The notes: a model not told the origin generated them from the letters alone. A DNA stretch of 64,000 nt from Candidatus Heimdallarchaeota archaeon (GCA_018238545.1 JABCTC010000013.1:18233-82232), one strand, 5' to 3'. Positions 15,375 through 38,445 are shown, numbered from the stretch's first letter. Program-made: numbers and translations.

Positions 15375-16898
15375 CTAATCGCCTGAGTCTTCATCAAACT
15401 CTGCAGATAACTGTTCATAAAACAGGTCTTCTTCCGAAACTGGAGCAACATCTTCTTCAGTTATTATTCTTGATCTGTCGTCCTCCAAATATTCCATATC
15501 TTCTAGAATTGGTTCCAGTTCTTCTTCTACTCTTGCAGAGAATTTCTCTTGTATAAAACCAAGAAGAGAGGTAAACAATAGGATAAATATTACCAGTGGA
15601 ATTAAGAGAAGAACTACACCTTCTGGTTCTAACATCTCAAGCGAGTTATAAATGGAAGGAGGATATCGTAAGAAGAATAATAAGATGTCTGGATTTAAGA
15701 TAGCGTATAGTCCCCCAAGCATTATTCCCACTCGGAATATAACTGATATTCCAACATACATGAGAGTTTTGAAAGGAGTTATAGCTATTGATGCACCTAC
15801 CAGCTTATCATCTACTTTTGGATCACTATGAATCAAACCATCATGATACCTTTGCAATCTAGCGGTCAGTTTGTCTTTTTGACCACCAGGACGAGCAAAC
15901 AGAGAATCTGAAGCTTTTTCCATGAAATAAGTTAATCCGGCTAAACCAAATTTTCTCCTGATAGAACTACTCGCACCCGTAATTGAGCTACCAGATTTTT
16001 TATCTCCACTGTCATCTGTTTCTGCTCCTTCTTCAGCTTCTCCTACCACAGGCATAGCTCGAGAGCTAGTAATCCCTAAACGGAATTCTTTCAATCTGTC
16101 CAAAGCTCTTAAAACTCTTTCTTGTCTACTCTGAGCAGGGTTAAGAATCTTCGTCATATATGATATCTGTAAGGCTATCTCAAGGAACAGATATGAGGCA
16201 AGCGCAATTAATACTACTTCGTTCGTGATAAGTTCTCCGAAGTTACGTGTGGGGGAAAATGAGAACCCTGGTTTGAAGAGTAACTTAACACTTCCGTAGT
16301 AGACCACTAACTGGATACAAACAAACGCAGCAGTTGCTGAGCGCATGTCTGCTCTTAATAGAAATGCAGCAACTGATACTGAAAATAGAATTACGAATAA
16401 TATTAAAATAGATGCTCTATTTGCAACTTTTAAGGTGCCTAAATTGGTGAAGTAATAAGCAAATGGAGAGAACAGTGCGTTTACAGCAGAATCACCTACA
16501 CCATATAGTCCTGATGTAGTCATCTCACCCGGAGGGGAAACATTATTGAATAAATCCACTGTAATAAATGCTCTCGCACCTAAAAGAATAGCATTTGCAT
16601 CTGTCCCTGAGATAAGTAGAAATATCATCAAAGGAAGAGAGAAAAGTACAAGAGCTATATTCTCAAAGAAAATGAATAGCAGAGTTAAGCTATCTAATAA
16701 ATGACCATCTGGAAATTTTTCTGTGTTTGTAAAATCAATTAAATCTGCAAATTGAAGCGCAACCCAAACAACAGCTCCTATAGCGAACAATCGTCCAATT
16801 AAATTAGTAATTGTAGTTTGAATCTTTGCTCCTCGGATTCTACGTTGAACTCCTCGGATTCCAAGTTCGATAGATTGTGTGTCTCCTAACGATTCCAT
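15375..16898 (-). CDS. Polytopic membrane protein with acidic C-terminal tail, last gene of MoxR cassette A
   Basis: ~8 hydrophobic segments, central cytoplasmic loop, D/E-rich tail. Confidence 0.75.
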   Translation of the reverse strand: MESLGDTQSIELGIRGVQRRIRGAKIQTTITNLIGRLFAIGAVVWVALQFADLIDFTNTEKFPDGHLLDSLTLLFIFFENIALVLFSLPLMIFLLISGTDANAILLGARAFITVDLFNNVSPPGEMTTSGLYGVGDSAVNALFSPFAYYFTNLGTLKVANRASILILFVILFSVSVAAFLLRADMRSATAAFVCIQLVVYYGSVKLLFKPGFSFSPTRNFGELITNEVVLIALASYLFLEIALQISYMTKILNPAQSRQERVLRALDRLKEFRLGITSSRAMPVVGEAEEGAETDDSGDKKSGSSITGASSSIRRKFGLAGLTYFMEKASDSLFARPGGQKDKLTARLQRYHDGLIHSDPKVDDKLVGASIAITPFKTLMYVGISVIFRVGIMLGGLYAILNPDILLFFLRYPPSIYNSLEMLEPEGVVLLLIPLVIFILLFTSLLGFIQEKFSARVEEELEPILEDMEYLEDDRSRIITEEDVAPVSEEDLFYEQLSAEFDEDSGD

Positions 16899-16905
16899 TT
16901 TTTTA

Positions 16906-18360
16906 TCACCCTTGACGTTGCATGCGGTTAAACTGTGCCATTATTGTAGGCAAGAAGTCATCTGGACCTACTGAGATAGATACCGCATCATATCTTCTTA
17001 GAAGCTTGAAAAGATTCTGTCGTTCGCCTAATTGTTTCTCAACCATAGCATGTCCTACCATTTGTTCTACTGGTGAAAGTTGATGTGAAACAATTTCAAA
17101 CCATGGTCCAAAGGGAGAGATAACAGTGATATTATGCTTCCTTGCTCTAGCTCTTCTGATAGCTTTAATAATTCTATCAGGATGAGATTCTAAATCTGAA
17201 ATTATTACGATGTAAGATGCACGTTTCACTCTTTGCAATAAATAGTCGATTGCAACTTCCAAGTCTGCCTCTCCTTGAGGTTTAGCGTGAGCAAGCGACT
17301 CTAGAAACTGAAATAGACGAGATCTCACTGAAGTGATATCAACCCAATTCCTTATTTTATCATCATAAATACATAGACCTACAAGATCCTTTTTCTCGAA
17401 TGCAAGATGTATAAGAAGAACAGCACTTCGGATAGCGTACTCTAGCTTAGTATTGCGAGGTAAACCTGCACCCATGCTTACTGAAGAATCTACCAATACA
17501 ATCACACGTATATTCTCTTCAGATTCATATTCTCTAACCATCATCTTTCCTGACCGCGAGAAAGCTTTCCAATCTATGAATTTGAAAGGATCGCCCACCT
17601 GGTATTTTCGTATACCCCAGAAATCTGAACCCATACCTTTGATTTTCGTTCTATGAAAACCAAACAGCACGCCTAGTTGTCTCTTCTTACCAATCATTTC
17701 CAATTTCTTGATATCTTCATAACTTGGATAAACTAAGATCTCTGTTTTTGTAATTATCTCTCCTTCTGTTGCGTAAAATCCCATTCGATCTCTTATAATC
17801 ACTTTAGTAGGACCTATCTCAAAAACCCCTCTTATTGGGATTCTAACGACATATCCATAAGTTATTGTTTGTCTTGGATTCAGCTGTGTAACGATAAAGT
17901 TTTCACCTAGAATTAAATCGAAAACTTCTGGTATTGCATCATAAATCTCAACGGTTGGCAACTGATTTACAGATTTGTTCCTAGCAGTTACTTCTATGTA
18001 TACATAATCTCCTGCGAAAGCCTTGGGTTTTGAAACTTTTCTTGTAATTTCAATTGACTTGGGGTTAGCTCCTAGTCGGTAAAATGGCAATCCCAAAAGA
18101 ACTGAAAAGATTAACATTACTCCACCGAGTATGAAAAACCAGATTAGAGTGCCTTCTGTGTCAAGATAGAAATGTAAGAAATCCATTATCCCTATACCTT
18201 GATTATCAGCAGGAACTCCAGTCGTTGTGGAGTTTACTTGGGGGCTTACACCAAATGAATCTAACATGGTATTTAATGATAAGTAACCCATTAATGCAAA
18301 GCCTATGCTAATCATTATGATTCCACCAAAGACTAAAAAACCGCCTCGACGTGTGAACAC
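16906..18360 (-). CDS. DUF58 family vWA-domain membrane protein
   Basis: GMGSDFWGIRKYQVGDPFKFIDWKAFSR, VREYESE, MIDAS-like DSSVSM, IISDLE. Confidence 0.92.
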   Translation of the reverse strand: MFTRRGGFLVFGGIIMISIGFALMGYLSLNTMLDSFGVSPQVNSTTTGVPADNQGIGIMDFLHFYLDTEGTLIWFFILGGVMLIFSVLLGLPFYRLGANPKSIEITRKVSKPKAFAGDYVYIEVTARNKSVNQLPTVEIYDAIPEVFDLILGENFIVTQLNPRQTITYGYVVRIPIRGVFEIGPTKVIIRDRMGFYATEGEIITKTEILVYPSYEDIKKLEMIGKKRQLGVLFGFHRTKIKGMGSDFWGIRKYQVGDPFKFIDWKAFSRSGKMMVREYESEENIRVIVLVDSSVSMGAGLPRNTKLEYAIRSAVLLIHLAFEKKDLVGLCIYDDKIRNWVDITSVRSRLFQFLESLAHAKPQGEADLEVAIDYLLQRVKRASYIVIISDLESHPDRIIKAIRRARARKHNITVISPFGPWFEIVSHQLSPVEQMVGHAMVEKQLGERQNLFKLLRRYDAVSISVGPDDFLPTIMAQFNRMQRQG

Positions 18361-18388
18361 TATATTACACCTAATTTGCTCGTTTCAT

Positions 18389-19402
18389 TTATACTGGAAC
18401 AGGTAAGTTTCGAAGTATTTCACTTACAACGATAGTTCCAGTGGTTCCTTCTAATTCTGCTTCTGGTTTCATCATTAATCTATGAGCTGTTGCTACTCTG
18501 GCAACTCTTTTCACATCATCGGGGATAACGTAATCTCTGCCTCTCATAGCTGCTACAGATTTACAGGCATTTAGAAGAGCTATACTACATCTTGGACTAC
18601 CGCCCAATGTTAGTCTAGGATCTGTTCGAGTTGCCATGACCATATCCCGGATATAATTCAGAATATCTTCATGAACAAATATCTGTGTCGCAATGCATTC
18701 TTTCATTTTAGTTATAGTCATAGGTGTTGTCACTCTGCGAACTGACTGTCGAATCTGTTTATGCTTTAATAGTATGATGTCCAACTCTTCTTCACGGGAA
18801 GGCAAGCCTACTAAAAGCTTAAACATGAACCTATCGACTTGAGCCTCGGGTAGAGGATATGTTCCTTCTTGTTCGATTGGGTTTTGGGTAGCTATAACCA
18901 AAAATGGGTCATCTAGTTTGAAAGTGGTTCCTTCTACTGTAACCTGTTTTTCTGCCATTGCTTCAAGCAATGCTGCTTGAGTTTTTGGTGGGCTTCTGTT
19001 GATTTCATCAGCCAACAAGATATTTGTGAATATTGGCCCTTTTCTCATCTTGAATGTTCCAGCTTTTGGATCATAAATGGTAGTTCCTACCACATCTGAT
19101 GGCAGAAGATCTGGAGTAAATTGAACTCTTTTGAATTCACATCCAAGTGTTAGAGCAAAGCTGTTAGCCATTACAGTTTTTGCAATACCTGGAACGCCCT
19201 CTAGTAGACAATGTCCTCCACCGAGTAGAGCTATAAACATGTCTTCTAGAACATCGACTTTCCCAATAATTACTCGTCGCAATTCGCTATATATTTCTTC
19301 CCAGACTCTTTTAATATCCTTTGGGGTAACAACTGCTTCTGTTGTTGTCTTTGCTTTAGCTTTTCCTTTTGCTTCACTATTTTCTTCACTCATTTTTTTC
19401 AC
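18389..19402 (-). CDS. moxR: MoxR family AAA+ ATPase
   Basis: GHCLLEGVPGIAKT, RVQFTPDLLPSD, LADEINRSPPKTQAALLEAM, ATQNPIEQEGTYPLPEAQVDRF. Confidence 0.96.
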   Translation of the reverse strand: MKKMSEENSEAKGKAKAKTTTEAVVTPKDIKRVWEEIYSELRRVIIGKVDVLEDMFIALLGGGHCLLEGVPGIAKTVMANSFALTLGCEFKRVQFTPDLLPSDVVGTTIYDPKAGTFKMRKGPIFTNILLADEINRSPPKTQAALLEAMAEKQVTVEGTTFKLDDPFLVIATQNPIEQEGTYPLPEAQVDRFMFKLLVGLPSREEELDIILLKHKQIRQSVRRVTTPMTITKMKECIATQIFVHEDILNYIRDMVMATRTDPRLTLGGSPRCSIALLNACKSVAAMRGRDYVIPDDVKRVARVATAHRLMMKPEAELEGTTGTIVVSEILRNLPVPV

Positions 19403-19435
19403 TTTTCCTTATATTATTTTTTTTTCCTTGTAATC

Positions 19436-21244
19436 TTACAATCTATCAATTAATCCTTTAATAAATGTCATATATCTCATGAACACAAATTCGGGGATGA
19501 ACTTTGGTCTATTAAGATATTCGTTTATTCTTACTAATTCATCATAAAGATCTTTAAATCTTAAGGAAGGAATTTTTGTGCTTAAGTATTCAGCTATTTC
19601 TTCTGGTGACGACATTGATTGTCTTGACACTTTTCTTAAGCCCCTTACCATCGATCTATATAGAAGACCAACAGCTTCACTATAGGCACCTGAATCAACG
19701 ATTCGCCGTATTTCTCTGTCAAACCTTGATGTCCCTTCTTCTCCTCTAACCTTAGTCCATAACACTGGAGACAATCTTGTTTTCTTTGGTATCAATGGAT
19801 AAGCTATTACTGCAAACAGGATAGGTATAAAGGGCGAATAAAGTGGGAACATTGACATTTCTGTGATAAACTTCATTATTGCCATTGAATATACGGAAGC
19901 GCTGTAAAACTTCTGATGAGCATGGCCTTCATCAAAGATTATAGGGATAGCTGTTCCTGCTGTTAGATTCATATCGCTTCCTAAATAATTAAACAAGTTC
20001 CTACTAAATATTAAATTATCATTTTCTTCTGGTTTGTCAATCCATTTGTTAATGAAAATATCAGGATCACCAATCATTACTATTTTACCGCGACCAATTG
20101 GTAAAGTCATAATTGGAGCAAACATAACATTTCCCCATTCATCAGCATCTGGAAAGGCATTACCTTCTTTTGCTGATTGGAAATCAGATTCCATCCAAGC
20201 CGATCTCGATGTGTAGAACGGAAGGAAGGGGAGAAACATATCTTCTATTTCAAAACCAAATATTTCCAATGAAATAGCTTGTAGAGGCATCCAATCGGTT
20301 CTATAAACCTCTTCGCCACTTACATTTTCAGAGTGTCTGATAGCTAAACTCAAAACTGTTCCAAACTCCATTTGCAAACCTTTGGATATACCATCAGTCA
20401 GAGGGTTTGATGTTTCCATATTTCTCAGAAGAGGTTGAGCAGGATTTGTTGTGTATGTTTCAGCATCCATTAGAACTGATCCATTAAAGGCAAAACCTTT
20501 CAGCATTCCCAACATACTAAAGATTAATGTCTCAGGACCTGCTGTTTGATTTTCTCCACCAAATCCAAACAAATCTAATAGAGAGGGTATTGATCCGTTA
20601 CTTATTTCAGCTATATCATCCCAAGCATTAAGGAGAGAGAAGAATGGATCAAAAATCTGCGCTCCCGTACCAAAATCGTCAGCTATGACCAAACTACCGC
20701 CCTTTGCTAGGAATGTAACCAAAGATATTGTATCTATGGTGTCGTAATTTGCTGCTGGACCAATAATTGCAACTATTCCAGGATCAGGATAACGGTTAAG
20801 TATTGCTAGAGATGACATACCATTTGAAATGTTATATCCTTCGTTTTCTAAGTTAACCCTTAAACTTGATAATCCATCCCAACCTTCATTATAGATGCTG
20901 AATTTTGTTCCATATCCAGCTAAACCAACGACTCCTAGTAAAATAGGCACCACTATAATCATAAAAAGTATGAACATTGCAATGGAGTATTTTGAGAAAT
21001 TTCTAACGAATTCAGACATCAAGTATAAAATCAGAATTACTATAGTTACCACTATCATCATAGCTCCAATTTCTCGAGAAAATATGTAAGCTACGATTGT
21101 TCCTACAATAGCCAAGACTTCGGCAACTATGAAGAGAACTAATTTTTTTGGAGATATTTGTATGTTTATTCTCTTCTTCTTAGCCTCTGGACTTGATCTT
21201 CTTTCTCTTGACTTGTTTCTTTGTTTGTTGTCTTGCTGGCTCAA
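19436..21244 (-). CDS. DUF4350-like membrane-anchored protein
   Basis: FSIYNEGWDGLSSL, GGSLVIADDFG, GKIVMIGDPDIFIN, IIFDEGH; 3 N-terminal TMs plus a further TM. Confidence 0.8.
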   Translation of the reverse strand: MSQQDNKQRNKSRERRSSPEAKKKRINIQISPKKLVLFIVAEVLAIVGTIVAYIFSREIGAMMIVVTIVILILYLMSEFVRNFSKYSIAMFILFMIIVVPILLGVVGLAGYGTKFSIYNEGWDGLSSLRVNLENEGYNISNGMSSLAILNRYPDPGIVAIIGPAANYDTIDTISLVTFLAKGGSLVIADDFGTGAQIFDPFFSLLNAWDDIAEISNGSIPSLLDLFGFGGENQTAGPETLIFSMLGMLKGFAFNGSVLMDAETYTTNPAQPLLRNMETSNPLTDGISKGLQMEFGTVLSLAIRHSENVSGEEVYRTDWMPLQAISLEIFGFEIEDMFLPFLPFYTSRSAWMESDFQSAKEGNAFPDADEWGNVMFAPIMTLPIGRGKIVMIGDPDIFINKWIDKPEENDNLIFSRNLFNYLGSDMNLTAGTAIPIIFDEGHAHQKFYSASVYSMAIMKFITEMSMFPLYSPFIPILFAVIAYPLIPKKTRLSPVLWTKVRGEEGTSRFDREIRRIVDSGAYSEAVGLLYRSMVRGLRKVSRQSMSSPEEIAEYLSTKIPSLRFKDLYDELVRINEYLNRPKFIPEFVFMRYMTFIKGLIDRL

Positions 21245-21632
21245 CTAATTCTACACCTTGTTCTCTTATTCCACGGAAACATATATCTAATCTCTGGATG
21301 GCTTCTTGATAGTCATCATATTGAATTTCCGTGTCAGTATATCTAGCAATTTCAAAGGATGTAAGATACTCGTCCATAACTTCTGTGGAGATGTTAGCTC
21401 TATTAGCAACTGAAAAACCAAATTCTCTTCCAGTTTCATATGGTGCACGGGACATATCTAGTAACCCGTGAGCAATGTTGGCTAATCCTCCAAAGGAAGC
21501 TATAACGGCACCTTTGTAATCTTGTCTTTGCTCAAATATTCTTACATCTGCCATAACAGATGTAAACATCTGGTTTAATGATTTCACTTGTTTTCTTTTC
21601 TTGAAGAACCCAAATATACCTCTATGACTCAA
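21180..21632 (-). CDS. Stand-alone DUF4129-like protein
   Basis: RAPYETGREF...FEIARY motif. Confidence 0.72.
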   Translation of the reverse strand: MSHRGIFGFFKKRKQVKSLNQMFTSVMADVRIFEQRQDYKGAVIASFGGLANIAHGLLDMSRAPYETGREFGFSVANRANISTEVMDEYLTSFEIARYTDTEIQYDDYQEAIQRLDICFRGIREQGVELVEPARQQTKKQVKRKKIKSRG

Positions 21633-28403: not shown

Positions 28404-28728
28404 GGTTTTTCCTCATGCTAATAGAAGGTTTACTGCACACCAGATGGTTACCCTATTAACGTTATACAACCACTTTATTCAAAAACTTTTTGTGATATGT
28501 AATGACATTATTTCTGCAAGACATAAAAAGAAAGATAGTTTTTCTGATCATCGATTTCTTTAACTTAATATAATTTGATTTTAAATTATTACTATTATAA
28601 TATCACAATAGTATAATAACAGCTAGAGTTAACTTCAAAAACGGATGTCATACATTCATTAAAAAACAAGTTGAAAATAGTTTCATTTAGTACTATAATA
28701 ATTATAATATTAGTAAAGTAAAACTAAG

Positions 28729-30516: not shown

Positions 30517-30521
30517 TGTTA

Positions 30522-31355: not shown

Positions 31356-32734
31356 GATGCTCGCCTCATTGCTTCTTGAACCAGTCTCTGTGTTGGAGAA
31401 TATTTTTTCATTAATCTGAATAATGATAGGATGATATTATCGTCATATCCAAATACATCCACATAATCTCCACGAATTGAATACAGGAGTTGACGTAATT
31501 CAATTTCCCTCTTTCTATATTCATCACTCACAATACTTGGAAAAACATCTTGTAATATTTCTCCATAATTCATATCTTCTGTCCTATCCAACATCCAATC
31601 TTGTGAGGATAAGATATTGAAATGCATGGTAGCAAAATTAACAAAAATCACCCTACTCCCCATGGTTTGGAGAAGATGTATGCCTTGCAGTTTTTTTACT
31701 AAATCTCCTTCTAAATCCGAAAATATTATAGCGATAGAATGCAAAACATTATTGTTTTTGGTAAATTTAACAGCGTTAAGGAAACTACTATGAACACCAG
31801 TAGCTTCAATATCATATAGGTTGAGCATAAGTCTTAGCTCATGTTTTCCTACTTGTGGTATTATGTATTTTTGCACATTTTCGGAATAAGCAACCACGGC
31901 CAAATCATGATTGGTGCCTTTAATCAGCGAACATAATTCTACTACTGAAGATAACGCGTACTCGAACTTGGGTCCAAACATTGTACTGCTAAGATCCAGA
32001 TAAATCAAGAAGTGCAAGTTTCTTTGGTCTTCAAATTCTCTTGAAATCAATTTATCATGTCTCGCAGTTGCATACCAATCAATATGTTTTAGTTGATCTC
32101 CGGGTAAATAATCTCGAAGCGCAAAAAATTCATCACCTCGTCCCTTTACTCTTTGAGCAAATTCATGAACCATTTTCAACAATAGTTCTTTCTTTGTCTT
32201 CCATGGAATATTAATACGCGGCCTCTGTGGCAGTATCTTGATTTGTTGTGTATCTTTCAGTATTCGCTTATGTTTGAAGAGATACTGGAATGAACCAACG
32301 GAAATTTCAATAGGACCAATTTCTCCATTTCCTCTTCTAGAGGCAAGCAATAACCAAACAATTTTCGTCTTCTTTTGTGGAAGTAATTTGATTAGTATTG
32401 TCTCTGGTTTGTCTATACTCTTAAAATGGAATGAAAAACGAAGACTAATTTTCGTGAGAATTGTTCTTCTAGATGGGTTTGTCAATTCAACTGCTACAGC
32501 TAATAAACCTCTACTTCTCATAAAATCCTTTGAACAACTCATTTTTGTATTGAAAGAATAAGTATGTGAAAATATGAAAGAAATAAAAGTGGAAGTAATA
32601 ACTACTAAGAATAAAACACCAGGAACTATAAGAAGTAAAGTATCTATTGCTAAGCCTATTATCACAAATAGACTACCGAATAGAATGAAAATTTTACCAT
32701 TCTTTGTAAGTTCAAAGTGTCTTTCTTCTTCCAT
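31352..32734 (-). CDS. DUF58 family vWA-domain membrane protein
   Basis: GRGDEFFALRDYLPGDQLKHIDWYATAR, SREFED, DLSSTM, IFSDLE. Confidence 0.9.
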   Translation of the reverse strand: MEEERHFELTKNGKIFILFGSLFVIIGLAIDTLLLIVPGVLFLVVITSTFISFIFSHTYSFNTKMSCSKDFMRSRGLLAVAVELTNPSRRTILTKISLRFSFHFKSIDKPETILIKLLPQKKTKIVWLLLASRRGNGEIGPIEISVGSFQYLFKHKRILKDTQQIKILPQRPRINIPWKTKKELLLKMVHEFAQRVKGRGDEFFALRDYLPGDQLKHIDWYATARHDKLISREFEDQRNLHFLIYLDLSSTMFGPKFEYALSSVVELCSLIKGTNHDLAVVAYSENVQKYIIPQVGKHELRLMLNLYDIEATGVHSSFLNAVKFTKNNNVLHSIAIIFSDLEGDLVKKLQGIHLLQTMGSRVIFVNFATMHFNILSSQDWMLDRTEDMNYGEILQDVFPSIVSDEYRKREIELRQLLYSIRGDYVDVFGYDDNIILSLFRLMKKYSPTQRLVQEAMRRAS

Positions 32735-32755
32735 TTGAAATCTCTGCCTTTTGTT

Positions 32756-33700
32756 TCATATCACAACTTCTACATCTGAAAGAATATTTTCAATAATCTC
32801 AGAAATTCGGATTTGTTCGATTTCTGCCTCTGGAGAGAGCATCAATCTATGGTTCATAACAGGATAGAATATAGATTTGATATCATCAGGTTCAACAAAA
32901 TCTCTCCCCCTAATTGCAGCAATAGACCGACTCAAAGTAAGTAAAGCTATTGAACCCCTTGGACTTGCTCCAAGTGCTAAGGAAGGAATCGAACGTGTTG
33001 CAATTACTAGTTTTGCAATATACTCAAGAATCTGGTTACTTACAGTTACGTTTTTCTCAATTTCTGTTATTAATTTGAGAATGGTTTTTTGATCAGTAAC
33101 TATCTCAATATCTGCAAACATCTTTTCTCTCTTTTTAACAAGCATCTCAACTTCTCCATTAAGAGAAGGAGGATAAACAGGAATCTTAACTAAAAATCTA
33201 TCAATCTGAGCTTCTGGAAGAGGATAGACTCCTGTACTTTCGATTGGGTTCTGAGTTGCTATAACCATAAATGGTTCCGGAAGCTTGAACGTTTGATTAC
33301 CTGAAGAAACTTGTTTCTCCTGCATTGCTTCTAACAAAGCTGATTGTGTTTTGGGTGGCGCTCTGTTTATTTCATCTGTAAGTAGTATACTGGTGAAAAC
33401 TGGTCCTTCAATGAATCTAAAGGAACTTGTTTCTCTTTCGTATATGTTACCTCCTGTGATATCAGCTGGCATCAAATCGCTTGTAAACTGAATTCTTTTG
33501 AAACCCATTTTGATAACTTCAGCTAAAGTACTAGCCATCAATGTTTTTGCTATTCCCGGGACACCTTCTAGCAGAACGTGTCCTTCACTTAGAAGAGAAG
33601 CAAACATCAGTTCGATAACATTTTCATTACCCACTATTCGTTTTTTCATTTGTTCCATTATTTTTTCAAAAATATCTTTTGCTTCTTGCACTTTTGTCAT
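32756..33700 (-). CDS. moxR: MoxR family AAA+ ATPase (second copy)
   Basis: GHVLLEGVPGIAKT, RIQFTSDLMPAD, DEINRAPPKTQSALLEAMQE, YPLPEAQIDRF. Confidence 0.96.
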   Translation of the reverse strand: MTKVQEAKDIFEKIMEQMKKRIVGNENVIELMFASLLSEGHVLLEGVPGIAKTLMASTLAEVIKMGFKRIQFTSDLMPADITGGNIYERETSSFRFIEGPVFTSILLTDEINRAPPKTQSALLEAMQEKQVSSGNQTFKLPEPFMVIATQNPIESTGVYPLPEAQIDRFLVKIPVYPPSLNGEVEMLVKKREKMFADIEIVTDQKTILKLITEIEKNVTVSNQILEYIAKLVIATRSIPSLALGASPRGSIALLTLSRSIAAIRGRDFVEPDDIKSIFYPVMNHRLMLSPEAEIEQIRISEIIENILSDVEVVI

Positions 33701-34983
33701 TTAAATCGTCCTCTTTTTTGTATCTCTTCAAGCATTTTGAAGAGTGAAAGGAAAGTTTTTTGATCTAATTTCCTTTTAAACGCTATTTCGAATAACTCTT
33801 TTTCCTCCTCTGTGAATTTCTCCAATTGAATATAACTTGCCTTTTTTGTAAGATAATACTGATACGCTTTCTTAGGATAAAGCTCATACTGGAAATACAA
33901 GTTTGATAGAAACTGTTCTTCAATCGTTGGTTTTATTGGAGATCCATAAGTATCGTACAACTCCCTCTCCCTTGACCAGATCCTATCTGATAAAAATTTC
34001 TTATAAGTTTCCTTTGGTTTGAATGTTTCTCTAAATCTTGGAGTGAAATAATATAATGTTAAAACAACCAAAACAAGTAAGAAAATAAAGACTTGTGTTT
34101 TTGATAACAGAATTATTGTTCCATAAGATTGGTTAATCATCCCCTCAGTTGTTGAAAAGGGCCATCTTTTATGACTTTCCTCAAAACAGACAAGTCTTTC
34201 TTCTCCTGAAGAATAATACCCAATAAGATAGAGTGCGAGATTAATATTCCCAAAACCTTGACTATAAAGATCGTTAGTTAGAAAACTTGGAGAAGAAATA
34301 ACAATAACGAATCCAAGCCCTCTTTTGAGAACTGTACCTACTTGCAAACTTGCTGTAGGTTCAGAATCAATATTCCAAATACCATCTTGGCTCTCGTCTA
34401 GAAATGCGGTGCTATAGGTACTTATCCCAAGGAGTTCTGTCTGTGTTGAACTCTCTGCTATAAAAGACAGTTCTCTAGCTTCTATCATGCATAGGCTAGT
34501 GTTTGTTTCAATTGGTGAATTTAACATTATTATTTCTGGTGTTTTATAATAATAGGTTGTTTCTAATATGGTTGAACTAGAAAGAAAAACTCCGAAGTGT
34601 TTTGCTAGAATATTGGTAGGACCAGAGCCAGCCAATATTACTGCTAAACCCCCCTGTAAAATAAAACCATCTATTGCTAATATTTCTGAATCCCGATAGT
34701 TCTTTGAGCCCCCAGCTATAATAAGAGTTGATGATTTTGGAAGTTTAATAATAGGGTCTGTTGATAATATCGTTCTTGTAGTATTGTAACCAGATTCAAG
34801 AAGTAAACTATTGAAATATGACATTCCACCAGGTCCTGTATTGTTTATAGAATATGGAGGTTGTCCGCTTGTGATGTTGATACTAAGGGGGAGAATGATT
34901 ACTAAGAATATTAGTAAGGTTTGGATAAGCATTTTGAACAATGGAGAATATTTCTTTGAAAATATAACAGGTGTAAGCTTCAT
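33697..34983 (-). CDS. DUF4350-like membrane-anchored protein
   Basis: YSINNTGPGGMSYF, FILQGG, VISSPSFLTN, VCFEESH; N- and C-terminal TMs. Confidence 0.75.
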   Translation of the reverse strand: MKLTPVIFSKKYSPLFKMLIQTLLIFLVIILPLSINITSGQPPYSINNTGPGGMSYFNSLLLESGYNTTRTILSTDPIIKLPKSSTLIIAGGSKNYRDSEILAIDGFILQGGLAVILAGSGPTNILAKHFGVFLSSSTILETTYYYKTPEIIMLNSPIETNTSLCMIEARELSFIAESSTQTELLGISTYSTAFLDESQDGIWNIDSEPTASLQVGTVLKRGLGFVIVISSPSFLTNDLYSQGFGNINLALYLIGYYSSGEERLVCFEESHKRWPFSTTEGMINQSYGTIILLSKTQVFIFLLVLVVLTLYYFTPRFRETFKPKETYKKFLSDRIWSRERELYDTYGSPIKPTIEEQFLSNLYFQYELYPKKAYQYYLTKKASYIQLEKFTEEEKELFEIAFKRKLDQKTFLSLFKMLEEIQKRGRFK

Positions 34984-35774
34984 TGTTCATCTTCCTCGCT
35001 AATTCGTTGAATAATTTCGATATCTGTTTGAGCCGCACTCAAACCTTTTACTGCTTCAAGATCTCTGATGAAATCCAACAAATCTTTCCTTTTCATCTGT
35101 TGTTTTTTATATCTTGCAACATAGAAAGTTTGTATCATTGAATTTAAGTAGGGAAGAATATTTGGCAAATCAAGTGACTTTGCAAATTCCTTGGGTGTAA
35201 GGTAAGTTTCTCTGCTTATCCCTAGAATTTTCTTCATGTTCTCATCAAGTTGATGATAACCGAAAATTATACCTTCCGTATATTTTCCTTCTCTCAAATA
35301 TTCTCTAAGTACTTCCGTAAGTGTTCTTATTTGTGTTCTGAATTTTTCTCTTCGAGATTGAAGTGTACTTCCTGTAACAATGGATCTAGGCGCAGACCTA
35401 GTTTCCTCAGTCTTTCTTCTAAGAAATAGAAAAACGATTATGAGTACTATAATTACTGCAACAGTTATGGGAATAACTTGAGCGGGGACAAGTCCCTCAC
35501 TTCCACCTTGTGGATTATTGGGTGGAACAGTAGGAGTATTAGTTGGATATGGGGGAGTAGAGGGGTCAGTTGTAAGAGGGTCTGTTGTGGGGGCAGGAGG
35601 AGAGAAAGAAGTGGTAGAAAGCGTACTTATAGAATAATCATCGATACCGTAGTATGTTTCTTGAGTACTGTTTACTAAGATAAATATTAGTATACAAGCG
35701 AGAATTATAAACAACCTAATATTAATAAATTTCTTGAAATCAATCTTCACTTGTATCACCTTTTTGAACTTCAT
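34980..35774 (-). CDS. Membrane protein with Pro/Thr linker and cytoplasmic DUF4129-like domain
   Basis: PPAPTTDPLTTDPSTPP linker, TM, RETYLTPKEF...FYVARY. Confidence 0.75.
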   Translation of the reverse strand: MKFKKVIQVKIDFKKFINIRLFIILACILIFILVNSTQETYYGIDDYSISTLSTTSFSPPAPTTDPLTTDPSTPPYPTNTPTVPPNNPQGGSEGLVPAQVIPITVAVIIVLIIVFLFLRRKTEETRSAPRSIVTGSTLQSRREKFRTQIRTLTEVLREYLREGKYTEGIIFGYHQLDENMKKILGISRETYLTPKEFAKSLDLPNILPYLNSMIQTFYVARYKKQQMKRKDLLDFIRDLEAVKGLSAAQTDIEIIQRISEEDEQ

Positions 35775-36744
35775 CTATTACTAGTTTGCTTTGACGAAGG
35801 AAAGCGTAAATTTTGCACAAAGGCCAATATCTGCTTATGCACACTTGATACTTATGAGCTGCTGTAAGATATCCCAAATAAGCGCATCTTCCATCTTCAT
35901 AATATATACAAGTATCAGTTTTTACTCTCCTTAGGATTAAATTAACTGTTCTATTCAGATAGACCATCGATAAAGCACTAAATTGTCTTTCGCTTCTTTT
36001 TGGAGGTTCGTCCAGATCGAAGATTGTTTTAACAGACAATGGCATATCTGGCAAAAGAAGATGTGAGTAAGACACCTTTGAACCTTTCTTGGTCGTTGAT
36101 ATACCAGATAGAAGTTTACCTAACTGAATACCAATTGCACCTCCAAGTCCACTTACTATTGTTAGCGAAAATGCAAAGATGATCAGAAAGCCTAAGAAGT
36201 AATTACTTGCGAAGAATGCGGAGACATTTGTAGAGCCTAATGAAGTAAATAGAACTATTTGAGAGAGGTAAAGAAGAATAAAAAAGAGAAGAGAAAAAAC
36301 AACAGTTGGAATGATGAGATCGTGAGCTTCTTCTCTCCACATAATTCCTACAATTATACCAGAAAGGAGAAAGGGGATGAAAGCTGTAATCATATAATTT
36401 GTGATTAATTCGAAAGCGTCTGTTCCTTCAAACGCAAATGTAAAGGGTAGAATCAAAATGGTATCAGGAGACCAAATAACAGTAGTTATAGTGAAAAGCT
36501 TCTGGAGTATATGATAAAGGACACCAAAAAATATCGAAAAACCATATCCAATTGCCATGTAAGTTGAGATTCTTAGAATAAGTTTTGTGATATACTCACG
36601 TTTTCCGCTATTTTTTAGATGAGGAAAAACCAATTTGAACATTACTCCCCTTAAAGTCATCTTGAGGGGAGGGGTACCTCCTTCAACCTTTGGACCACGA
36701 TCAACAGGAAGGGGAGGGCGTCGGCTAATTACCATATTATTCAC
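35740..36744 (-). CDS. Multi-pass membrane protein with C-terminal four-Cys motif
   Basis: 4-5 TMs; CIYYEDGRC...CISRYWPLC. Confidence 0.72.
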   Translation of the reverse strand: MNNMVISRRPPLPVDRGPKVEGGTPPLKMTLRGVMFKLVFPHLKNSGKREYITKLILRISTYMAIGYGFSIFFGVLYHILQKLFTITTVIWSPDTILILPFTFAFEGTDAFELITNYMITAFIPFLLSGIIVGIMWREEAHDLIIPTVVFSLLFFILLYLSQIVLFTSLGSTNVSAFFASNYFLGFLIIFAFSLTIVSGLGGAIGIQLGKLLSGISTTKKGSKVSYSHLLLPDMPLSVKTIFDLDEPPKRSERQFSALSMVYLNRTVNLILRRVKTDTCIYYEDGRCAYLGYLTAAHKYQVCISRYWPLCKIYAFLRQSKLVIDEVQKGDTSED

Positions 36745-38445
36745 CTATAAAATTACCAATCTTACTCCTTTTGATGTTTTTAATAGGAAGTAAACACTTG
36801 CAGAAACTAATACAAGTGTGCATAACATACCTATGATTCCATAGACCATATGTAAGATAGTGATTATCAAAAGTAATGAAAAAACTATCATATACAAAGA
36901 GGTCACGATTATTGATATAGCGACAATTGAAAGAAGGTTTATTGAACTTATAATAGCTTTCACTCTATTCTTTTTGTATCTGTGCCATACCACGGTTACG
37001 AATATTGCAATTATAATAGAAAGTAAGAATAGAGTATAACCAAGGAAAGATACTGTATCTTCAATAGTTGCAAATGTAAAAATAAAACTTATTAACATCC
37101 CAACAGCCAGAATACGAGTAAACCCAACTGCGATTGATGAGTAAAATGGTGGAGAGGAGGAACTCATCTTTTCATATAATGCATCAACTTCTGTTCCACA
37201 GGACCAGCAAATACGTGTAAATGACGGCAGTACTTGATTGCAATTTCGACACTGTATTTTAGGGAAGGACCAACAATTCAGACAAAATTGACCATTATAT
37301 ACTGGTGTTCGGCATTGTGAACACACCATTAAATTAGTTTTTTCATCATAAAGAGGTTCTATTTCTTTCATTTTCTCAAGATTTTCCTTTGAATGATGTA
37401 ACTGAGATGAAGTATCTGAACATTCTTTCCCAATGTGTTGAGTAAAACATTTAGGACAAAAGCTAGGGACATAAAAAATTACCACCAAAATAAATATCCC
37501 AAACAAAGCATAAGATAAAATCCCTAGGATGGAATAGATTAGCGACACGGTTTCCACATTTGTGTTAAATTTTGTATTGTAATTCCACAAACTATGGATA
37601 AAAATGCTTAGAGCTAGAAACAGTATAACTACTATAGCTCTCGTGAATTTTGGAAGCTTATTGCGATATAAGAATGCCAACCCTAAACCTGTAGCAGCCA
37701 ACATAGTTGTTACAGTGTGTAAAGGGTAGATGCATCGTTTAAGAACTAATAAATCAATAACTGTTTCAGGTGAAGAAGATCGAGAATAGGAAAGAAATTG
37801 TTCAAATAAATCAAACCAAGCTCCAAAAAAACCACCTACAATAACAAAAATTCTGAATGAGGGGGTAAGCCTAGTGTGAATCGATCGTTTAGAGTTGAGA
37901 TTCAATCTTACATAGTTTCCTAGCAAGATAATTATGGGGAAAATCTTAGCTATTTCTTCAACTATAGGGATAATAAATACGTAGAAGATATAATGTATGA
38001 TATGATACACTTCAGGAAATGAATCTATCGATGAGAAAAACCCAGAAATAATGGAAACTAGAGTAAAAGACTTGTTCTCTATGACTACAGCAAAATAAGC
38101 TGAAAGAACCCCCATCACCAAGAGAAGAGAAAAGAGTTTCTTAATTAATTTGGTTTCAAGTTGAGTGCTTGTTATACTAAATAGTAAATAAAGGCAGGCT
38201 ACCCAAAGAATGAAGAATACAATAATTAGGAGAATTATAAGAATTGGAAAATAGATAGAAGTTTCATATTTAATAACAAAAGTTACTAGGAAATAAGCCA
38301 GAATTGCTATTACAGCTAAAATTGAGATTTTAGCTAGTGTTGAGAAACTCAAGATGCGTTTGTGTATTGGTTCAACAATTAACAAATCTTCAACTGAAGG
38401 AACTGATTTTTTTTTCTTAGCTGAAATATGAATCATTGTTTCCAA
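36745..38445 (-). CDS. PrsW-family intramembrane glutamic protease fused to zinc ribbons and extra TMs
   Basis: VEEIAK, FDLFE, LH, IHSLWN motifs; CPKC, CSQC/CLNC, CRNC/CWSC. Confidence 0.85.
   Translation of the reverse strand: METMIHISAKKKKSVPSVEDLLIVEPIHKRILSFSTLAKISILAVIAILAYFLVTFVIKYETSIYFPILIILLIIVFFILWVACLYLLFSITSTQLETKLIKKLFSLLLVMGVLSAYFAVVIENKSFTLVSIISGFFSSIDSFPEVYHIIHYIFYVFIIPIVEEIAKIFPIIILLGNYVRLNLNSKRSIHTRLTPSFRIFVIVGGFFGAWFDLFEQFLSYSRSSSPETVIDLLVLKRCIYPLHTVTTMLAATGLGLAFLYRNKLPKFTRAIVVILFLALSIFIHSLWNYNTKFNTNVETVSLIYSILGILSYALFGIFILVVIFYVPSFCPKCFTQHIGKECSDTSSQLHHSKENLEKMKEIEPLYDEKTNLMVCSQCRTPVYNGQFCLNCWSFPKIQCRNCNQVLPSFTRICWSCGTEVDALYEKMSSSSPPFYSSIAVGFTRILAVGMLISFIFTFATIEDTVSFLGYTLFLLSIIIAIFVTVVWHRYKKNRVKAIISSINLLSIVAISIIVTSLYMIVFSLLLIITILHMVYGIIGMLCTLVLVSASVYFLLKTSKGVRLVIL

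What the first reader, a model, noticed from the sequence alone, without database searches (positions are those of the whole stretch)
15375..38445. Two syntenic, paralogous MoxR/DUF58/DUF4350/DUF4129 membrane cassettes with different front-end modules
Seen: both minus-strand clusters have seven genes and share the core order DUF4129 > DUF4350 > MoxR > DUF58(vWA) > polytopic membrane protein with acidic tail. Genes are tightly coupled (ATGA overlaps at 25296-9, 31352-5, 33697-700, 34980-3). The heads differ: cassette A (28403-15375) starts with a transglutaminase-like protein and a 1225-aa Ig-repeat surface protein, while cassette B (38445-30522) starts with a PrsW protease-Zn-ribbon protein and a Cys-motif membrane protein. 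Established: MoxR with vWA partners act as chaperone-like remodellers, and MoxR-DUF58-transglutaminase neighbourhoods are known but functionally unresolved. Inference: a modular trans-envelope machine in which a cytoplasmic AAA+/vWA motor acts through DUF4129 tails on surface or membrane clients (assembly, shedding or quality control of surface structures), duplicated and specialised here.
Basis: partly seen in the sequence, partly recalled or inferred. Interest (0 to 1): 0.75.

Follow-up and report, generated by a model that had tools for sequence, protein, structure and literature searches.

The report
Two MoxR membrane operons in Heimdallarchaeon
Two neighbouring seven-gene operons in a Heimdall-group Asgard archaeon each couple a cytoplasmic MoxR ATPase and its DUF58 partner to membrane and surface proteins; they are two old, separate versions of a gene module that has been predicted but never tested, not a local duplication, and one carries an intact PrsW membrane protease as its first gene.

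Summary
Both seven-gene minus-strand operons are real and tightly packed, with four ATGA overlaps and no gap above 33 bp.

**Homology between the two operons.** Four of the five shared positions are homologous:
- MoxR, 50% identical.
- DUF58, 23% identical.
- DUF4350, hhalign probability 99.8%.
- The DUF4129-like domain, hhalign probability 76%.
- The terminal membrane proteins are not detectably related (0.8%).

**Cassette A.** Its core (DUF4129-DUF4350-MoxR-DUF58-A7) is an Asgard-wide operon.
- The A7 membrane protein occurs in 262 of 300 sampled Asgard genomes.
- It lies directly after DUF58 in 15 of 15 loci from seven other families.
- It has almost no relatives outside Asgard.

**Cassette B.** The whole cassette, including a PrsW/zinc-ribbon head with invariant catalytic motifs, is kept across the window's order and in part of a sister family of the same class (probably Heimdallarchaeia). 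It was not found in other Asgard classes.

**Origin.** The MoxR tree and identities show an ancient A/B split, not a local duplication.

**What is known.** The kind is already predicted (Makarova 2015; Zhang and Aravind 2012), and this scan has met both cassettes on other genomes. I found no paper linking PrsW to MoxR.

**Function.** It is untested. The best guess is ATP-driven remodelling or turnover of membrane-anchored surface proteins.

The parts
25296..28403 (-). A1: 1035-aa membrane protein with 4-5 N-terminal TM segments and a transglutaminase-like core that lacks the catalytic Cys. It is a pseudo-enzyme and forms the head of cassette A.
   Evidence: Pfam PF01841 scores 23.9 bits at residues 436-528. 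An alignment of an orthologue to P. aeruginosa TgpA (6g49) places Ile at the Cys position. No Cys occurs there in any of 7 orthologues, and the His is Tyr in family f1 (six orthologues).
21622..25299 (-). A2: 1225-aa surface protein with a signal/TM segment at 9-27, an ectodomain of about 1050 aa, a TM segment at 1075-1093 and a cytoplasmic DUF4129 tail.
   Evidence: Pfam PF13559 scores 29.8 bits at residues 1153-1208. It overlaps A1 by ATGA. It evolves fast, at 40-45% identity within the genus.
21180..21632 (-). A3: 150-aa soluble stand-alone DUF4129-like protein.
   Evidence: Pfam scores 18.8 bits, below threshold; the orthologue in L026 scores 34.1 bits. Invariant residues are R62, R69, E94 and Y98. 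It is 83-87% identical across the genus. The AF2 model is a five-helix bundle with pLDDT 82.
19436..21244 (-). A4: 602-aa DUF4350 protein with N-terminal TM segments, an ectodomain, a TM segment near residue 470 and a cytoplasmic tail of about 120 aa.
   Evidence: Pfam PF14258 scores 48.6 bits. hhalign to the B4 family gives probability 99.8%.
18389..19402 (-). A5: MoxR-proper AAA+ ATPase of the Asgard-wide A type.
   Evidence: AAA_3 scores 219.6 bits and AAA_lid_2 80 bits. Walker A is GVPGIAKT and Walker B is LLADEI.
16906..18360 (-). A6: 484-aa DUF58/vWA protein with two N-terminal TM segments, a weak Ig-like (DUF11) match and a canonical MIDAS motif DxSxS.
   Evidence: Pfam PF01882 scores 120.5 bits and VWA_2 42 bits. 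The motif reads DSSVSM here, and DxSxS is kept in nearly all A-type orthologues across Asgard.
15375..16898 (-). A7: 507-aa polytopic membrane protein of a family that is Asgard-wide and almost restricted to Asgard. It always follows the A-type DUF58 gene.
   Evidence: No Pfam or NCBIfam match. A profile search of 1.84 billion representatives gives 97 hits; the named ones are Asgard, plus one Korarchaeota hit. It is present in 262 of 300 Asgard genomes. It lies next to DUF58 in 15 of 15 loci. Its conserved charged loop carries the RLQRYH motif.
36745..38445 (-). B1: 566-aa PrsW-family intramembrane metalloprotease fused to zinc ribbons and extra C-terminal TM segments. It is the head of cassette B.
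   Evidence: Pfam PF13367 scores 42.5 bits against a cut-off of 23.5. The motifs EExxK, FxxxE, RxxxPxH and HxxWN and five CxxC pairs are invariant in 8 orthologues from five families.
35740..36744 (-). B2: 334-aa membrane protein with a C-terminal Cys4 motif (C-x7-C-x14-C-x7-C).
   Evidence: Weak DUF5518 match. The Cys4 motif is conserved in six family-f1 orthologues and in L058.
34980..35774 (-). B3: 264-aa protein with a signal/TM segment, a Pro/Thr-rich stalk, a TM segment at 100-118 and a cytoplasmic DUF4129-like domain.
   Evidence: hhalign to the A3 family gives probability 76%, E 2e-5. Pfam DUF4129 is the top hit at E 0.012. The TPKEF...FYxARY motifs are invariant.
33697..34983 (-). B4: 428-aa DUF4350 protein with a signal/TM segment, an ectodomain, a TM segment at 290-308 and a cytoplasmic tail.
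   Evidence: Pfam PF14258 scores 32.6 bits. hhalign to the A4 family gives probability 99.8%.
32756..33700 (-). B5: MoxR-proper AAA+ ATPase of the B type.
   Evidence: AAA_3 scores 211.9 bits. Walker A and B motifs are intact. The B clade has 99/88 support.
31352..32734 (-). B6: 460-aa DUF58 protein of the B type, with an N-terminal TM hairpin and a degenerate MIDAS motif.
   Evidence: Pfam PF01882 scores 60.1 bits with no VWA_2 match. The motif reads DLSST here and is further eroded in other B-type orthologues. Close homologues occur only in Heimdallarchaeaceae.
30522..31355 (-). B7: 277-aa protein with about six TM segments and a conserved N-terminal MRxRD..EEDW motif. It is not homologous to A7.
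   Evidence: No family match. Homologues detectable with this single protein query lie only in family f1 (genus g1 and the g11 genome). An HMM reaches the same-position protein in family f2 at E 1.5e-5. hhalign against A7 gives probability 0.8%.

Best explanation
**What is there (shown)**

The region holds two distinct, anciently separated members of the prokaryotic MoxR-DUF58(vWA)-DUF4129-DUF4350 membrane module. They sit side by side in Heimdallarchaeaceae.
- Cassette A is the family's form of an Asgard-wide operon. Its layout is large surface protein(s), DUF4129, DUF4350, MoxR, DUF58 with an intact MIDAS motif, and the Asgard-specific A7 membrane protein. Here it is extended by a catalytically dead transglutaminase-like membrane protein.
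- Cassette B is a lineage-restricted sister system, found in the window's order and part of a sister family of the same class. Its first gene is an apparently active PrsW intramembrane metalloprotease fused to zinc ribbons. Its DUF58 has an eroded MIDAS motif.

**How it most likely works (inferred)**
1. A cytoplasmic MoxR hexamer is recruited to the membrane by DUF58, which is held there by its N-terminal TM hairpin.
2. MoxR uses ATP to pull on or remodel the cytoplasmic DUF4129 helical-bundle domains. These sit behind the TM anchors of the surface protein (A2) or stalk protein (B3), or are supplied as a soluble adaptor (A3).
3. The DUF4350 ectodomain protein and the polytopic protein (A7 or B7) form the membrane platform.
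4. The net effect is assembly, quality control or removal of membrane-anchored surface proteins.
5. The two heads are both peptidase-family membrane proteins. In A, a dead TGL domain is left as a binding module. In B, a live PrsW could cut the client within or near the membrane. This fits the earlier proposal of a membrane-proximal, AAA+-assisted degradation system, with the peptidase exchanged.

My confidence in the identity and evolutionary status is about 0.85. My confidence in the mechanism is about 0.35-0.4.
For: **Domain identities and intact motifs**
- Walker A and B motifs are intact in both MoxRs.
- The MIDAS motif is canonical in A-type DUF58 and degenerate in B-type.
- The PrsW catalytic motifs are invariant across five families.

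**Tight coupling**
- Overlaps and gaps are shown.

**Synteny**
- Genus level.
- Family level, with the two cassettes adjacent.
- Cassette A core in 7 further Asgard families: DUF58-A7 in 15 of 15 loci, MoxR in 13 of 15, DUF4350 in 12 of 15.
- A7 in 262 of 300 Asgard genomes.
- Cassette B in families f2-f5.

**Ancient split**
-.

**Inside/outside layout**
- Cytoplasmic parts are conserved and ectodomains evolve fast.
- Upstream genes in other Asgard operons encode large repeat surface proteins, some with DUF4129 tails.

**Same linkage elsewhere**
- Mycobacterium, Listeria, Thermomicrobium and Haloferax carry related arrangements.

**Published predictions of the same kind**
- Makarova et al. 2015, PMC5898192.
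- Zhang and Aravind 2012, PMC3495828.
Against: - No interaction, expression or phenotype data exist for any Asgard member.
- The orientation of the DUF58 vWA domain (cytoplasmic or external) rests on a two-TM hairpin and on the logic of partnering with MoxR. Makarova et al. read the vWA proteins as secreted.
- Most Asgard operons of the A type carry no peptidase-family gene in the loci I looked at, so degradation cannot be the universal function.
- The TGL head of cassette A is inactive.
- A7 and B7 have no recognisable fold or family, so their role as a 'platform' is a guess.
- The A7 topology could not be resolved: five hydrophobic segments lie before the charged loop.
Confidence: 0.5

Rival explanations
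1. The cassettes encode a dedicated secretion or surface-assembly system, as in the Makarova 2015 model. The DUF4350, vWA and membrane proteins would form an export or anchoring apparatus for the large Ig-like surface proteins. MoxR would serve only to assemble or regulate the complex, with no proteolysis or extraction involved.
For: - Most products are membrane or surface proteins.
- DUF4350 is GldG-like; B4 also hits ABC_transp_aux.
- Large repeat surface proteins lie upstream in many Asgard operons.
- The proposal is published.
Against: - No secretion ATPase, secretin or channel family was recognised.
- A2 and B3 have ordinary signal/TM segments that would suit Sec.
- Cassette B has no large surface client, only a stalk protein with about 65 external residues.
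- The conserved PrsW head points to cleavage rather than export.
Confidence: 0.25
2. The cassettes act as a classical MoxR-vWA maturation chaperone, in the manner of NorQ/NorD, CbbQ/CbbO and CoxD/CoxE (my own knowledge). The pair would insert a metal or otherwise activate a specific membrane enzyme or complex encoded elsewhere, and the neighbouring membrane proteins would be accessory.
For: - A-type DUF58 keeps a canonical metal-binding MIDAS motif across Asgard.
- MoxR-vWA pairs are the recurrent functional unit.
- The f3 family keeps only DUF58-MoxR-A7.
Against: - No metalloenzyme client is encoded in or beside either cassette.
- The constant partners are membrane or surface proteins.
- The B-type MIDAS motif is eroded.
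Confidence: 0.12
3. The cassettes are a conflict or defence module, like the MoxR-vWA-beta-propeller ternary systems (Kaur et al. 2020, PMC7159879). The fast-evolving surface proteins would act as sensors or decoys for viruses.
For: - Both MoxRs also match bpMoxR above its cut-off (29.7 and 46.5 bits against 27).
- The ectodomains evolve fast.
Against: - The AAA_3 matches are far stronger.
- There is no beta-propeller or effector partner.
- No PADLOC match passes the E < 0.001 filter except one borderline DolB hit (E 0.001, 16.4 bits).
- Distribution across Asgard is near-universal and usually single-copy (one or two matches per genome, the second often a split hit), with stable synteny. That is unlike patchy defence islands.
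Confidence: 0.05
4. Cassette B arose as a recent tandem duplicate of cassette A that then specialised.
For: - The two cassettes are adjacent, have the same orientation and share the same order of core genes.
Against: - Identity between the cassettes is low: MoxR 50%, DUF58 23%, and A7/B7 are unrelated.
- B-type cassettes lie at separate loci in other families.
- The MoxR tree places the B clade on the unresolved base together with bacterial MoxRs.
Confidence: 0.03

Closest known systems
[quoted passage not shown]
   Same: - Both have a DUF4350 protein with a signal peptide, an ectodomain and a C-terminal TM segment.
- Both have a MoxR ATPase and a vWA protein with an Ig-like region.
- Both have large Ig-like surface proteins and multi-TM membrane proteins in one operon.
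- The function is untested in both.
   Different: - The terminal membrane protein here (A7) belongs to a family that is almost restricted to Asgard.
- DUF4129 and a dead transglutaminase-like protein are present here but are not part of that description.
- Cassette B has a PrsW head.
- I read the DUF58 vWA domain as cytoplasmic; the paper reads it as secreted.
- Homology of A7 or B7 to the paper's 5-TM arCOGs could not be tested.
MoxR-vWA(DUF58)-YebA/TgpA transglutaminase-like operon, proposed as a membrane-proximal ATP-dependent degradation system (Zhang and Aravind 2012, PMC3495828). Examples: Listeria MoxR-DUF58-TgpA and P. aeruginosa TgpA (PMC3507681)
   Same: - MoxR, DUF58 and a polytopic TGL membrane protein lie in one operon.
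- DUF4129 is associated with the system.
   Different: - The TGL core here lacks the catalytic Cys in all orthologues, and the His as well in family f1.
- DUF4129 is not fused to the TGL protein. It sits on the surface protein's tail and on a separate small protein.
- The gene order differs: the TGL gene comes first here, not last.
- Here there are also DUF4350 and A7.
Actinobacterial, Chloroflexi-type and haloarchaeal DUF4129/MoxR/DUF58 clusters. Examples: M. marinum pMMRN DUF4129-x-MoxR-DUF58-x, Thermomicrobium MoxR-DUF58-DUF4129 and Haloferax mediterranei
   Same: - They show the same linkage of DUF4129, MoxR and DUF58.
- In Mycobacterium the order DUF4129 > x > MoxR > DUF58 > small protein is also the same.
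- Their MoxRs are 43-50% identical to A5 and B5.
   Different: - Those loci show no A7 or B7 family protein, no PrsW and no giant surface protein.
PFNA cluster of bifidobacteria (pkb2-fn3-MoxR-duf58-tgm; PMC8430577)
   Same: A large repeat (FN3) surface protein, MoxR, DUF58 and a transglutaminase-like membrane protein are co-transcribed.
   Different: - PFNA has a Ser/Thr kinase that phosphorylates MoxR.
- It has no DUF4350 and no A7.
- It is bacterial and host-associated.
PrsW site-1 protease of Bacillus subtilis, which cleaves the anti-sigma factor RsiW on envelope stress (my own knowledge; Pfam PF13367)
   Same: - B1 matches the family above its cut-off.
- B1 keeps the EExxK, FxxxE and HxxWN-type motifs in all orthologues.
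   Different: - B1 is fused to zinc ribbons and extra TM helices.
- It heads a MoxR/DUF58 operon.
- Archaea have no sigma or anti-sigma factors, so its substrate must be different.
- No paper in the library holds both PrsW and MoxR.

Membership tests
MoxR-proper AAA+ ATPases (Pfam AAA_3 PF07726 + AAA_lid_2) | Full-length AAA_3 and lid matches above the curated cut-offs | tested here: met
   A5 scores 219.6 and 80 bits. B5 scores 211.9 and 77.4 bits. The cut-offs are 27 and 22.7.
MoxR-proper AAA+ ATPases (Pfam AAA_3 PF07726 + AAA_lid_2) | Intact Walker A and Walker B motifs | tested here: met
   Both have GVPGIAKT. Walker B reads LLADEI in A5 and LLTDEI in B5.
MoxR-proper AAA+ ATPases (Pfam AAA_3 PF07726 + AAA_lid_2) | Adjacent vWA/DUF58 partner gene | tested here: met
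   DUF58 lies directly downstream in both cassettes, with gaps of 28 and 21 bp.
DUF58 (PF01882) vWA-like proteins | Pfam match above cut-off | tested here: met
   A6 scores 120.5 bits and B6 60.1 bits. The cut-off is 23.4.
DUF58 (PF01882) vWA-like proteins | Metal-binding MIDAS motif DxSxS | tested here: inconclusive
   A6 reads DSSVS, which is canonical, and the motif is kept in A-type orthologues across Asgard. B6 reads DLSST, and other B-type orthologues lose the Asp or a Ser. The feature is therefore met in A and eroded in B.
arCOG01314-associated predicted secretion/membrane-remodelling complex (Makarova 2015) | DUF4350 protein with an N-terminal signal/TM segment, an ectodomain and a C-terminal TM segment | tested here: met
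   PF14258 scores 48.6 bits in A4 and 32.6 bits in B4. TM segments flank the domain.
arCOG01314-associated predicted secretion/membrane-remodelling complex (Makarova 2015) | Operon with a COG0714 ATPase and a vWA protein | tested here: met
arCOG01314-associated predicted secretion/membrane-remodelling complex (Makarova 2015) | Ig-like or S-layer-like surface proteins in the operon | tested here: inconclusive
   A2 shows no Ig-type Pfam match at E up to 5. Positional equivalents in other Asgard operons carry CarboxypepD_reg, MG2 or Big_1 repeats. Cassette B has none.
arCOG01314-associated predicted secretion/membrane-remodelling complex (Makarova 2015) | Membrane proteins belonging to the listed arCOGs (arCOG07126, arCOG11232 and others) | not testable with these tools
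   No arCOG profiles were on hand. A7 and B7 match no Pfam or NCBIfam family.
MoxR-vWA-TGL (YebA/TgpA) operon (Zhang and Aravind 2012) | Polytopic membrane protein with a transglutaminase-like core next to MoxR and vWA | tested here: met
   A1 has PF01841 at 23.9 bits (the L026 orthologue scores 33.2) and 4-5 TM segments.
MoxR-vWA-TGL (YebA/TgpA) operon (Zhang and Aravind 2012) | Catalytic Cys-His-Asp triad | tested here: not met
   Ile or Ser occupies the Cys position in all 7 orthologues. The His is Tyr in family f1. The alignment to TgpA (6g49) was used.
MoxR-vWA-TGL (YebA/TgpA) operon (Zhang and Aravind 2012) | DUF4129 fused to the C-terminus of the TGL protein (TgpA type) | tested here: not met
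   A1 has no DUF4129 match. The domain sits on A2 and A3.
PrsW intramembrane metalloprotease (PF13367) | Pfam match above cut-off | tested here: met
   B1 scores 42.5 bits against a cut-off of 23.5.
PrsW intramembrane metalloprotease (PF13367) | Conserved Glu-Glu and His motifs of the family | tested here: met
   E163, E164, K167, F211, E215, H243, H284, W287 and N288 are invariant in 8 orthologues from 5 families. Which of these residues are catalytic rests on my own knowledge of the family.
PrsW intramembrane metalloprotease (PF13367) | Proteolytic activity on a membrane substrate | not testable with these tools
   This needs a cleavage assay.
DUF4129 (PF13559) | Pfam match above cut-off (24.8 bits) | tested here: inconclusive
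   The A2 tail scores 29.8 bits and meets the cut-off. A3 scores 18.8 bits, while its L026 orthologue scores 34.1. B3 scores 16.1 bits and is linked to A3 by hhalign at probability 76%.
MoxR-vWA-beta-propeller ternary conflict systems (Kaur et al. 2020) | Beta-propeller partner and effector genes | tested here: not met
   No such domains occur in any of the 14 products. There is no PADLOC match beyond one borderline hit.

The most novel reading that the evidence does not exclude
Cassette B is an AAA+-powered regulated intramembrane proteolysis pathway. On this reading, the MoxR/DUF58 pair unfolds or extracts a membrane-anchored client, which could be the DUF4129-tailed stalk protein B3, the Cys4-tailed B2 or B7. 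The zinc-ribbon PrsW then cleaves it. This would give Heimdallarchaeia, the closest known relatives of eukaryotes, a signalling or turnover route in which a dynein/midasin-like ATPase is coupled to a membrane protease. Cassette A would be the Asgard-wide, protease-free or dead-protease form of the same machine, acting on giant surface proteins.
Probability: 0.15. Interest if true: 0.75.

Novelty: new variant of a known kind. Interest (0 to 1): 0.45.

Why it matters
**The module is common but unexplained.** MoxR-DUF58-DUF4129-DUF4350 clusters are among the most widespread conserved gene modules in prokaryotes with no known function.

**Two things stand out in Asgard archaea.**
- The A-type operon is nearly universal and includes a membrane protein family (A7) found almost nowhere else. 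It is probably part of how these cells build or maintain their unusual surfaces.
- The B-type operon ties the module to an intact intramembrane protease. This gives a concrete hypothesis, cleavage of an operon-encoded membrane protein, that could be tested in a heterologous host.

**A possible link to eukaryotes.** MoxR is the closest prokaryotic relative of the dynein and midasin AAA+ domains (Zhang and Aravind 2012). A vertically inherited MoxR-vWA(MIDAS) pair in Asgard is therefore also relevant to the origin of those eukaryotic machines. I did not test this.

**Limits.** The kind of system is already predicted, the scan has seen both cassettes in other genomes, and nothing here fixes the function.

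Tried and rejected
**Homology of the terminal membrane proteins (rejected)**
- BLAST finds nothing.
- hhalign gives probability 0.8%.

**Recent local duplication (rejected)**

**Family or fold for A7 (nothing found)**
- Pfam and NCBIfam give no match.
- The AF2 model has pLDDT 66, and Foldseek against the PDB finds no match at E up to 0.001.
- A profile search of PDB sequences gives nothing.
- The ESM Atlas returns only unnamed Asgard-type clusters at scores up to 0.83.

**Family for B7 (nothing found)**
- The Atlas returns unnamed clusters at scores up to 0.85, which are leads only.

**DUF4129 fold (not established)**
- The model is a five-helix bundle with pLDDT 82.
- HEPN-domain chains recur among the best matches (Foldseek E 0.05; VIA Z about 10). 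This is within the range expected for any helical bundle, and the HEPN Rx4-6H motif is absent. I do not call it HEPN.

**Is the cytoplasmic tail of A4 a DUF4129 domain? (inconclusive)**
- hhalign gives probability 25%.

**Defence system (no support)**
- PADLOC gives no match apart from one borderline DolB hit at E 0.001.

Context in metagenome contigs was therefore replaced by the genome search and the fetch from genomes.
Whether PrsW is linked to MoxR outside Asgard was not tested.
- Phmmer of the A1 TGase region against the PDB found nothing. The orthologue in L026 gave the weak TgpA alignment that was used to place the catalytic residues.

Full report
**Organism and setting**

The window is contig C4 (bases 18233-82232) of a 3.6-Mb genome that is 92% complete. 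Close homologues of its proteins are labelled Candidatus Heimdallarchaeaceae or Heimdallarchaeota. GC content is about 34%.

**The observation**

ORF listing gives two runs of seven minus-strand genes. I label them A1 to A7 and B1 to B7 in order of transcription.

Cassette A, 28403 down to 15375:

| Gene | Product |
|---|---|
| A1 | Transglutaminase-like membrane protein |
| A2 | 1225-aa protein with a C-terminal DUF4129 domain |
| A3 | 150-aa DUF4129-like protein |
| A4 | DUF4350 |
| A5 | MoxR (AAA_3 plus lid) |
| A6 | DUF58/VWA_2 |
| A7 | 507-aa polytopic protein, no family match |

Cassette B, 38445 down to 30522:

| Gene | Product |
|---|---|
| B1 | PrsW plus double zinc ribbon |
| B2 | Membrane protein with a Cys4 tail |
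| B3 | 264-aa protein |
| B4 | DUF4350 |
| B5 | MoxR |
| B6 | DUF58 |
| B7 | 277-aa polytopic protein, no family match |

- Several starts are preceded by GGTG-type motifs.
- A thyX gene on the opposite strand (28729-30516) separates the cassettes. It is interrupted here by a LAGLIDADG intein and is intein-free in a relative.

**Which parts are really shared**

| Position | Result |
|---|---|
| MoxR (A5/B5) | 50% identical |
| DUF58 (A6/B6) | 23% identical |
| DUF4350 (A4/B4) | Alike only near the N-terminus by BLAST; profiles built from orthologues align over about 300 columns at probability 99.8% |
| DUF4129-like (A3/B3) | The cytoplasmic end of B3 aligns with the A3 family at probability 76% (E 2e-5). 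The motif pattern R-x-x-x-x-T-P/x-K/R-E-F ... F-x-x-A-R-Y is shared, and DUF4129 is its best, sub-threshold, Pfam hit |
| Terminal protein (A7/B7) | Unrelated, probability 0.8% |

- A7 and B7 share only a general layout: a basic N-terminus, a charged central loop, a final TM hairpin and a charged tail.

**Cassette A is the local form of an Asgard-wide operon**

- A profile of 15 A7 orthologues found only 97 representatives among 1.84 billion proteins.
- The named hits are Heimdall, Wukong, Hod, Thor, Odin, Hel, Freya/Jord and Ran archaea, plus one Korarchaeota hit.
- In a sample of 300 Asgard genomes the family is present in 262. It is in 82 of the 89 high-quality genomes and in 59 of 70 genera, usually as one copy.
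- I fetched 15 loci from seven other Asgard families:
  - A7 follows an A-type DUF58 in 15 of 15.
  - MoxR precedes DUF58 in 13.
  - DUF4350 precedes MoxR in 12.
  - Small DUF4129 proteins or DUF4129-tailed giants lie further upstream.
- The upstream giants carry CarboxypepD_reg, MG2 or Big_1 repeats.
- The transglutaminase-like head plus giant protein is shared with family f4.
- Family f3 keeps only DUF58-MoxR-A7, with the first two genes swapped.
- The TGL core lacks the catalytic Cys in all seven orthologues, and the His is Tyr in family f1 (six orthologues). It is therefore a pseudo-enzyme.
- A-type DUF58 keeps a canonical MIDAS motif DxSxS in nearly all A-type orthologues across Asgard.
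- Across the genus, conservation differs sharply by compartment:
  - Cytoplasmic parts: MoxR 84-88%, A3 83-87%, A6 84-87% identical.
  - Surface parts: A1 38-44%, A2 40-45% identical.

**Cassette B is a separate, lineage-restricted system**

- All seven genes are syntenic across the genus.
- The cassette lies next to cassette A in all five genera of the family.
- Diverged but collinear cassettes lie at separate loci in families f2, f3 and f4, and in family f5 of the same class. Their order is PrsW, a protein of about 250-290 aa, DUF4129-like, DUF4350-like, B-type MoxR, B-type DUF58, and a membrane protein of about 250-290 aa. In f4 the order is rearranged.
- A B-type DUF58 profile gives strong full-length matches only in families f1 to f5. 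Other Asgard classes show only their A-type gene.
- The PrsW motifs (EExxK, FxxxE, RxxxPxH, HxxWN) and five CxxC pairs are invariant across eight orthologues that are only 20% identical overall. The protease is therefore under selection and probably active.
- The B-type MIDAS motif is degenerate. It reads DLSST here and is eroded further in other orthologues.
- The B7 family evolves fast, but an HMM reaches the f2 protein (E 1.5e-5), and an N-terminal MRxD....W motif recurs in most of them.

**Duplication or separate lineages?**

- A5 is 46-50% identical, and B5 43-48% identical, to MoxRs of haloarchaea, actinobacteria and Listeria. That is about as close as A5 and B5 are to each other.
- In a maximum-likelihood tree the B sequences form a clade (99/88). 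It arises from an unresolved base that also holds three Asgard A-type clades and the bacterial and haloarchaeal sequences.
- The two cassettes are therefore ancient relatives that were brought side by side in Heimdallarchaeaceae. They are not a local duplication.
- A third MoxR/DUF58 locus with other partners lies on contig C82.

**Comparison with what is known**

- Makarova et al. 2015 described DUF4350 (arCOG01314) operons with a COG0714 ATPase, a vWA protein, Ig-like or S-layer-like proteins and multi-TM proteins. They proposed a new secretion or membrane-remodelling complex.
- Zhang and Aravind 2012 described the very common MoxR-vWA-YebA(TGL) operon and proposed a membrane-proximal degradation system: vWA recruits, MoxR unfolds and TGL cuts.
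- Bacterial and haloarchaeal records show the same linkages.
- The bifidobacterial PFNA cluster adds a repeat surface protein.
- No paper in the library holds both PrsW and MoxR, and none describes Asgard MoxR systems.
- This scan has already noted the A-type operon in many Asgard genomes, and the twin arrangement with PrsW in other Heimdall genomes. My results agree with those follow-ups.

**Mechanism**

What is shown:
- Both MoxRs have intact ATPase motifs.
- The membrane layout and the conservation patterns are as described above.

What is inferred:
1. MoxR, docked by DUF58, works on cytoplasmic DUF4129 helical bundles. The AF2 model of A3 has pLDDT 82.
2. These bundles sit behind the TM anchors of surface or stalk proteins, or are supplied as a soluble adaptor.
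3. The DUF4350 protein and the polytopic protein form the membrane platform.
4. Both heads belong to peptidase families, dead TGL in A and live PrsW in B. This fits the degradation idea with the peptidase exchanged.
5. Most Asgard A-type operons lack any peptidase, however, so remodelling or assembly is the safer general statement.

Rivals considered: a secretion system, a metal-insertion chaperone and a defence system. I found no support for defence.

**Verdict**

This is a real, strongly conserved pair of operons. The kind is known and its function untested. Cassette B, with its PrsW head, is a new variant and offers a directly testable cleavage hypothesis.

Noticed in passing
window 28729-30516 (+): The thyX gene (Thy1) between the two cassettes is interrupted by a LAGLIDADG intein. 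The matches are Thy1 in two stretches, LAGLIDADG_3 and Intein_splicing. The same-position thyX in relative L062 (11438-12148) is 236 aa and has no intein.
   Followed up: partly
G000 contig C82, locus L001 8914-18160: A third MoxR/DUF58 locus has a different make-up: an HTH regulator, MoxR, three proteins of unknown family (735, 245 and 530 aa), DUF58/VWA_2, and a 620-aa CARDB surface protein.
   Followed up: partly
window 25296-28403 (-), residues about 470-530: The transglutaminase-like core of A1 has no catalytic Cys in any of 7 orthologues. In family f1 (six orthologues) the His is replaced by Tyr, while the f4 orthologue keeps it.
   Followed up: yes
window 21180-21632 (-); model m237c09c1853a: The DUF4129 domain models as a five-helix bundle. 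Its best structural neighbours are repeatedly HEPN-domain proteins (VIA Z about 10). This is within the noise range for helical bundles, and the Rx4-6H motif is absent.
   Followed up: partly
window 15375-16898 (-), C-terminal 50 residues; alignment A1: The C-terminal tail of A7 flips charge between lineages. It is strongly acidic in Heimdallarchaeaceae and strongly basic (KRKRRRKK) in the other families of the order.
   Followed up: partly
L022, L023, L027, L029 (family f3): In family f3 the A-type unit is reduced to DUF58-MoxR-A7, with MoxR and DUF58 in swapped order. No DUF4350, DUF4129 or TGL gene is detected upstream. In three of the four listed loci (and in L028, same family) two nucleotidyl-transferase-like genes follow on the same strand.
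   Followed up: partly
window 31352-32734 (-) and B-type orthologues (L058-L061): The MIDAS motif of the B-type DUF58 is eroded in different ways in different lineages (DLSST, DLGST, DASLF, QGGAS). The A type keeps DxSxS across Asgard.
   Followed up: yes
window 19436-21244 (-), residues 512-602: The cytoplasmic tail of the DUF4350 protein A4 aligns weakly, but over its full length, with the DUF4129 profile (hhalign probability 25%, E 7.6e-4). It may be a diverged copy of the same helical domain.
   Followed up: partly
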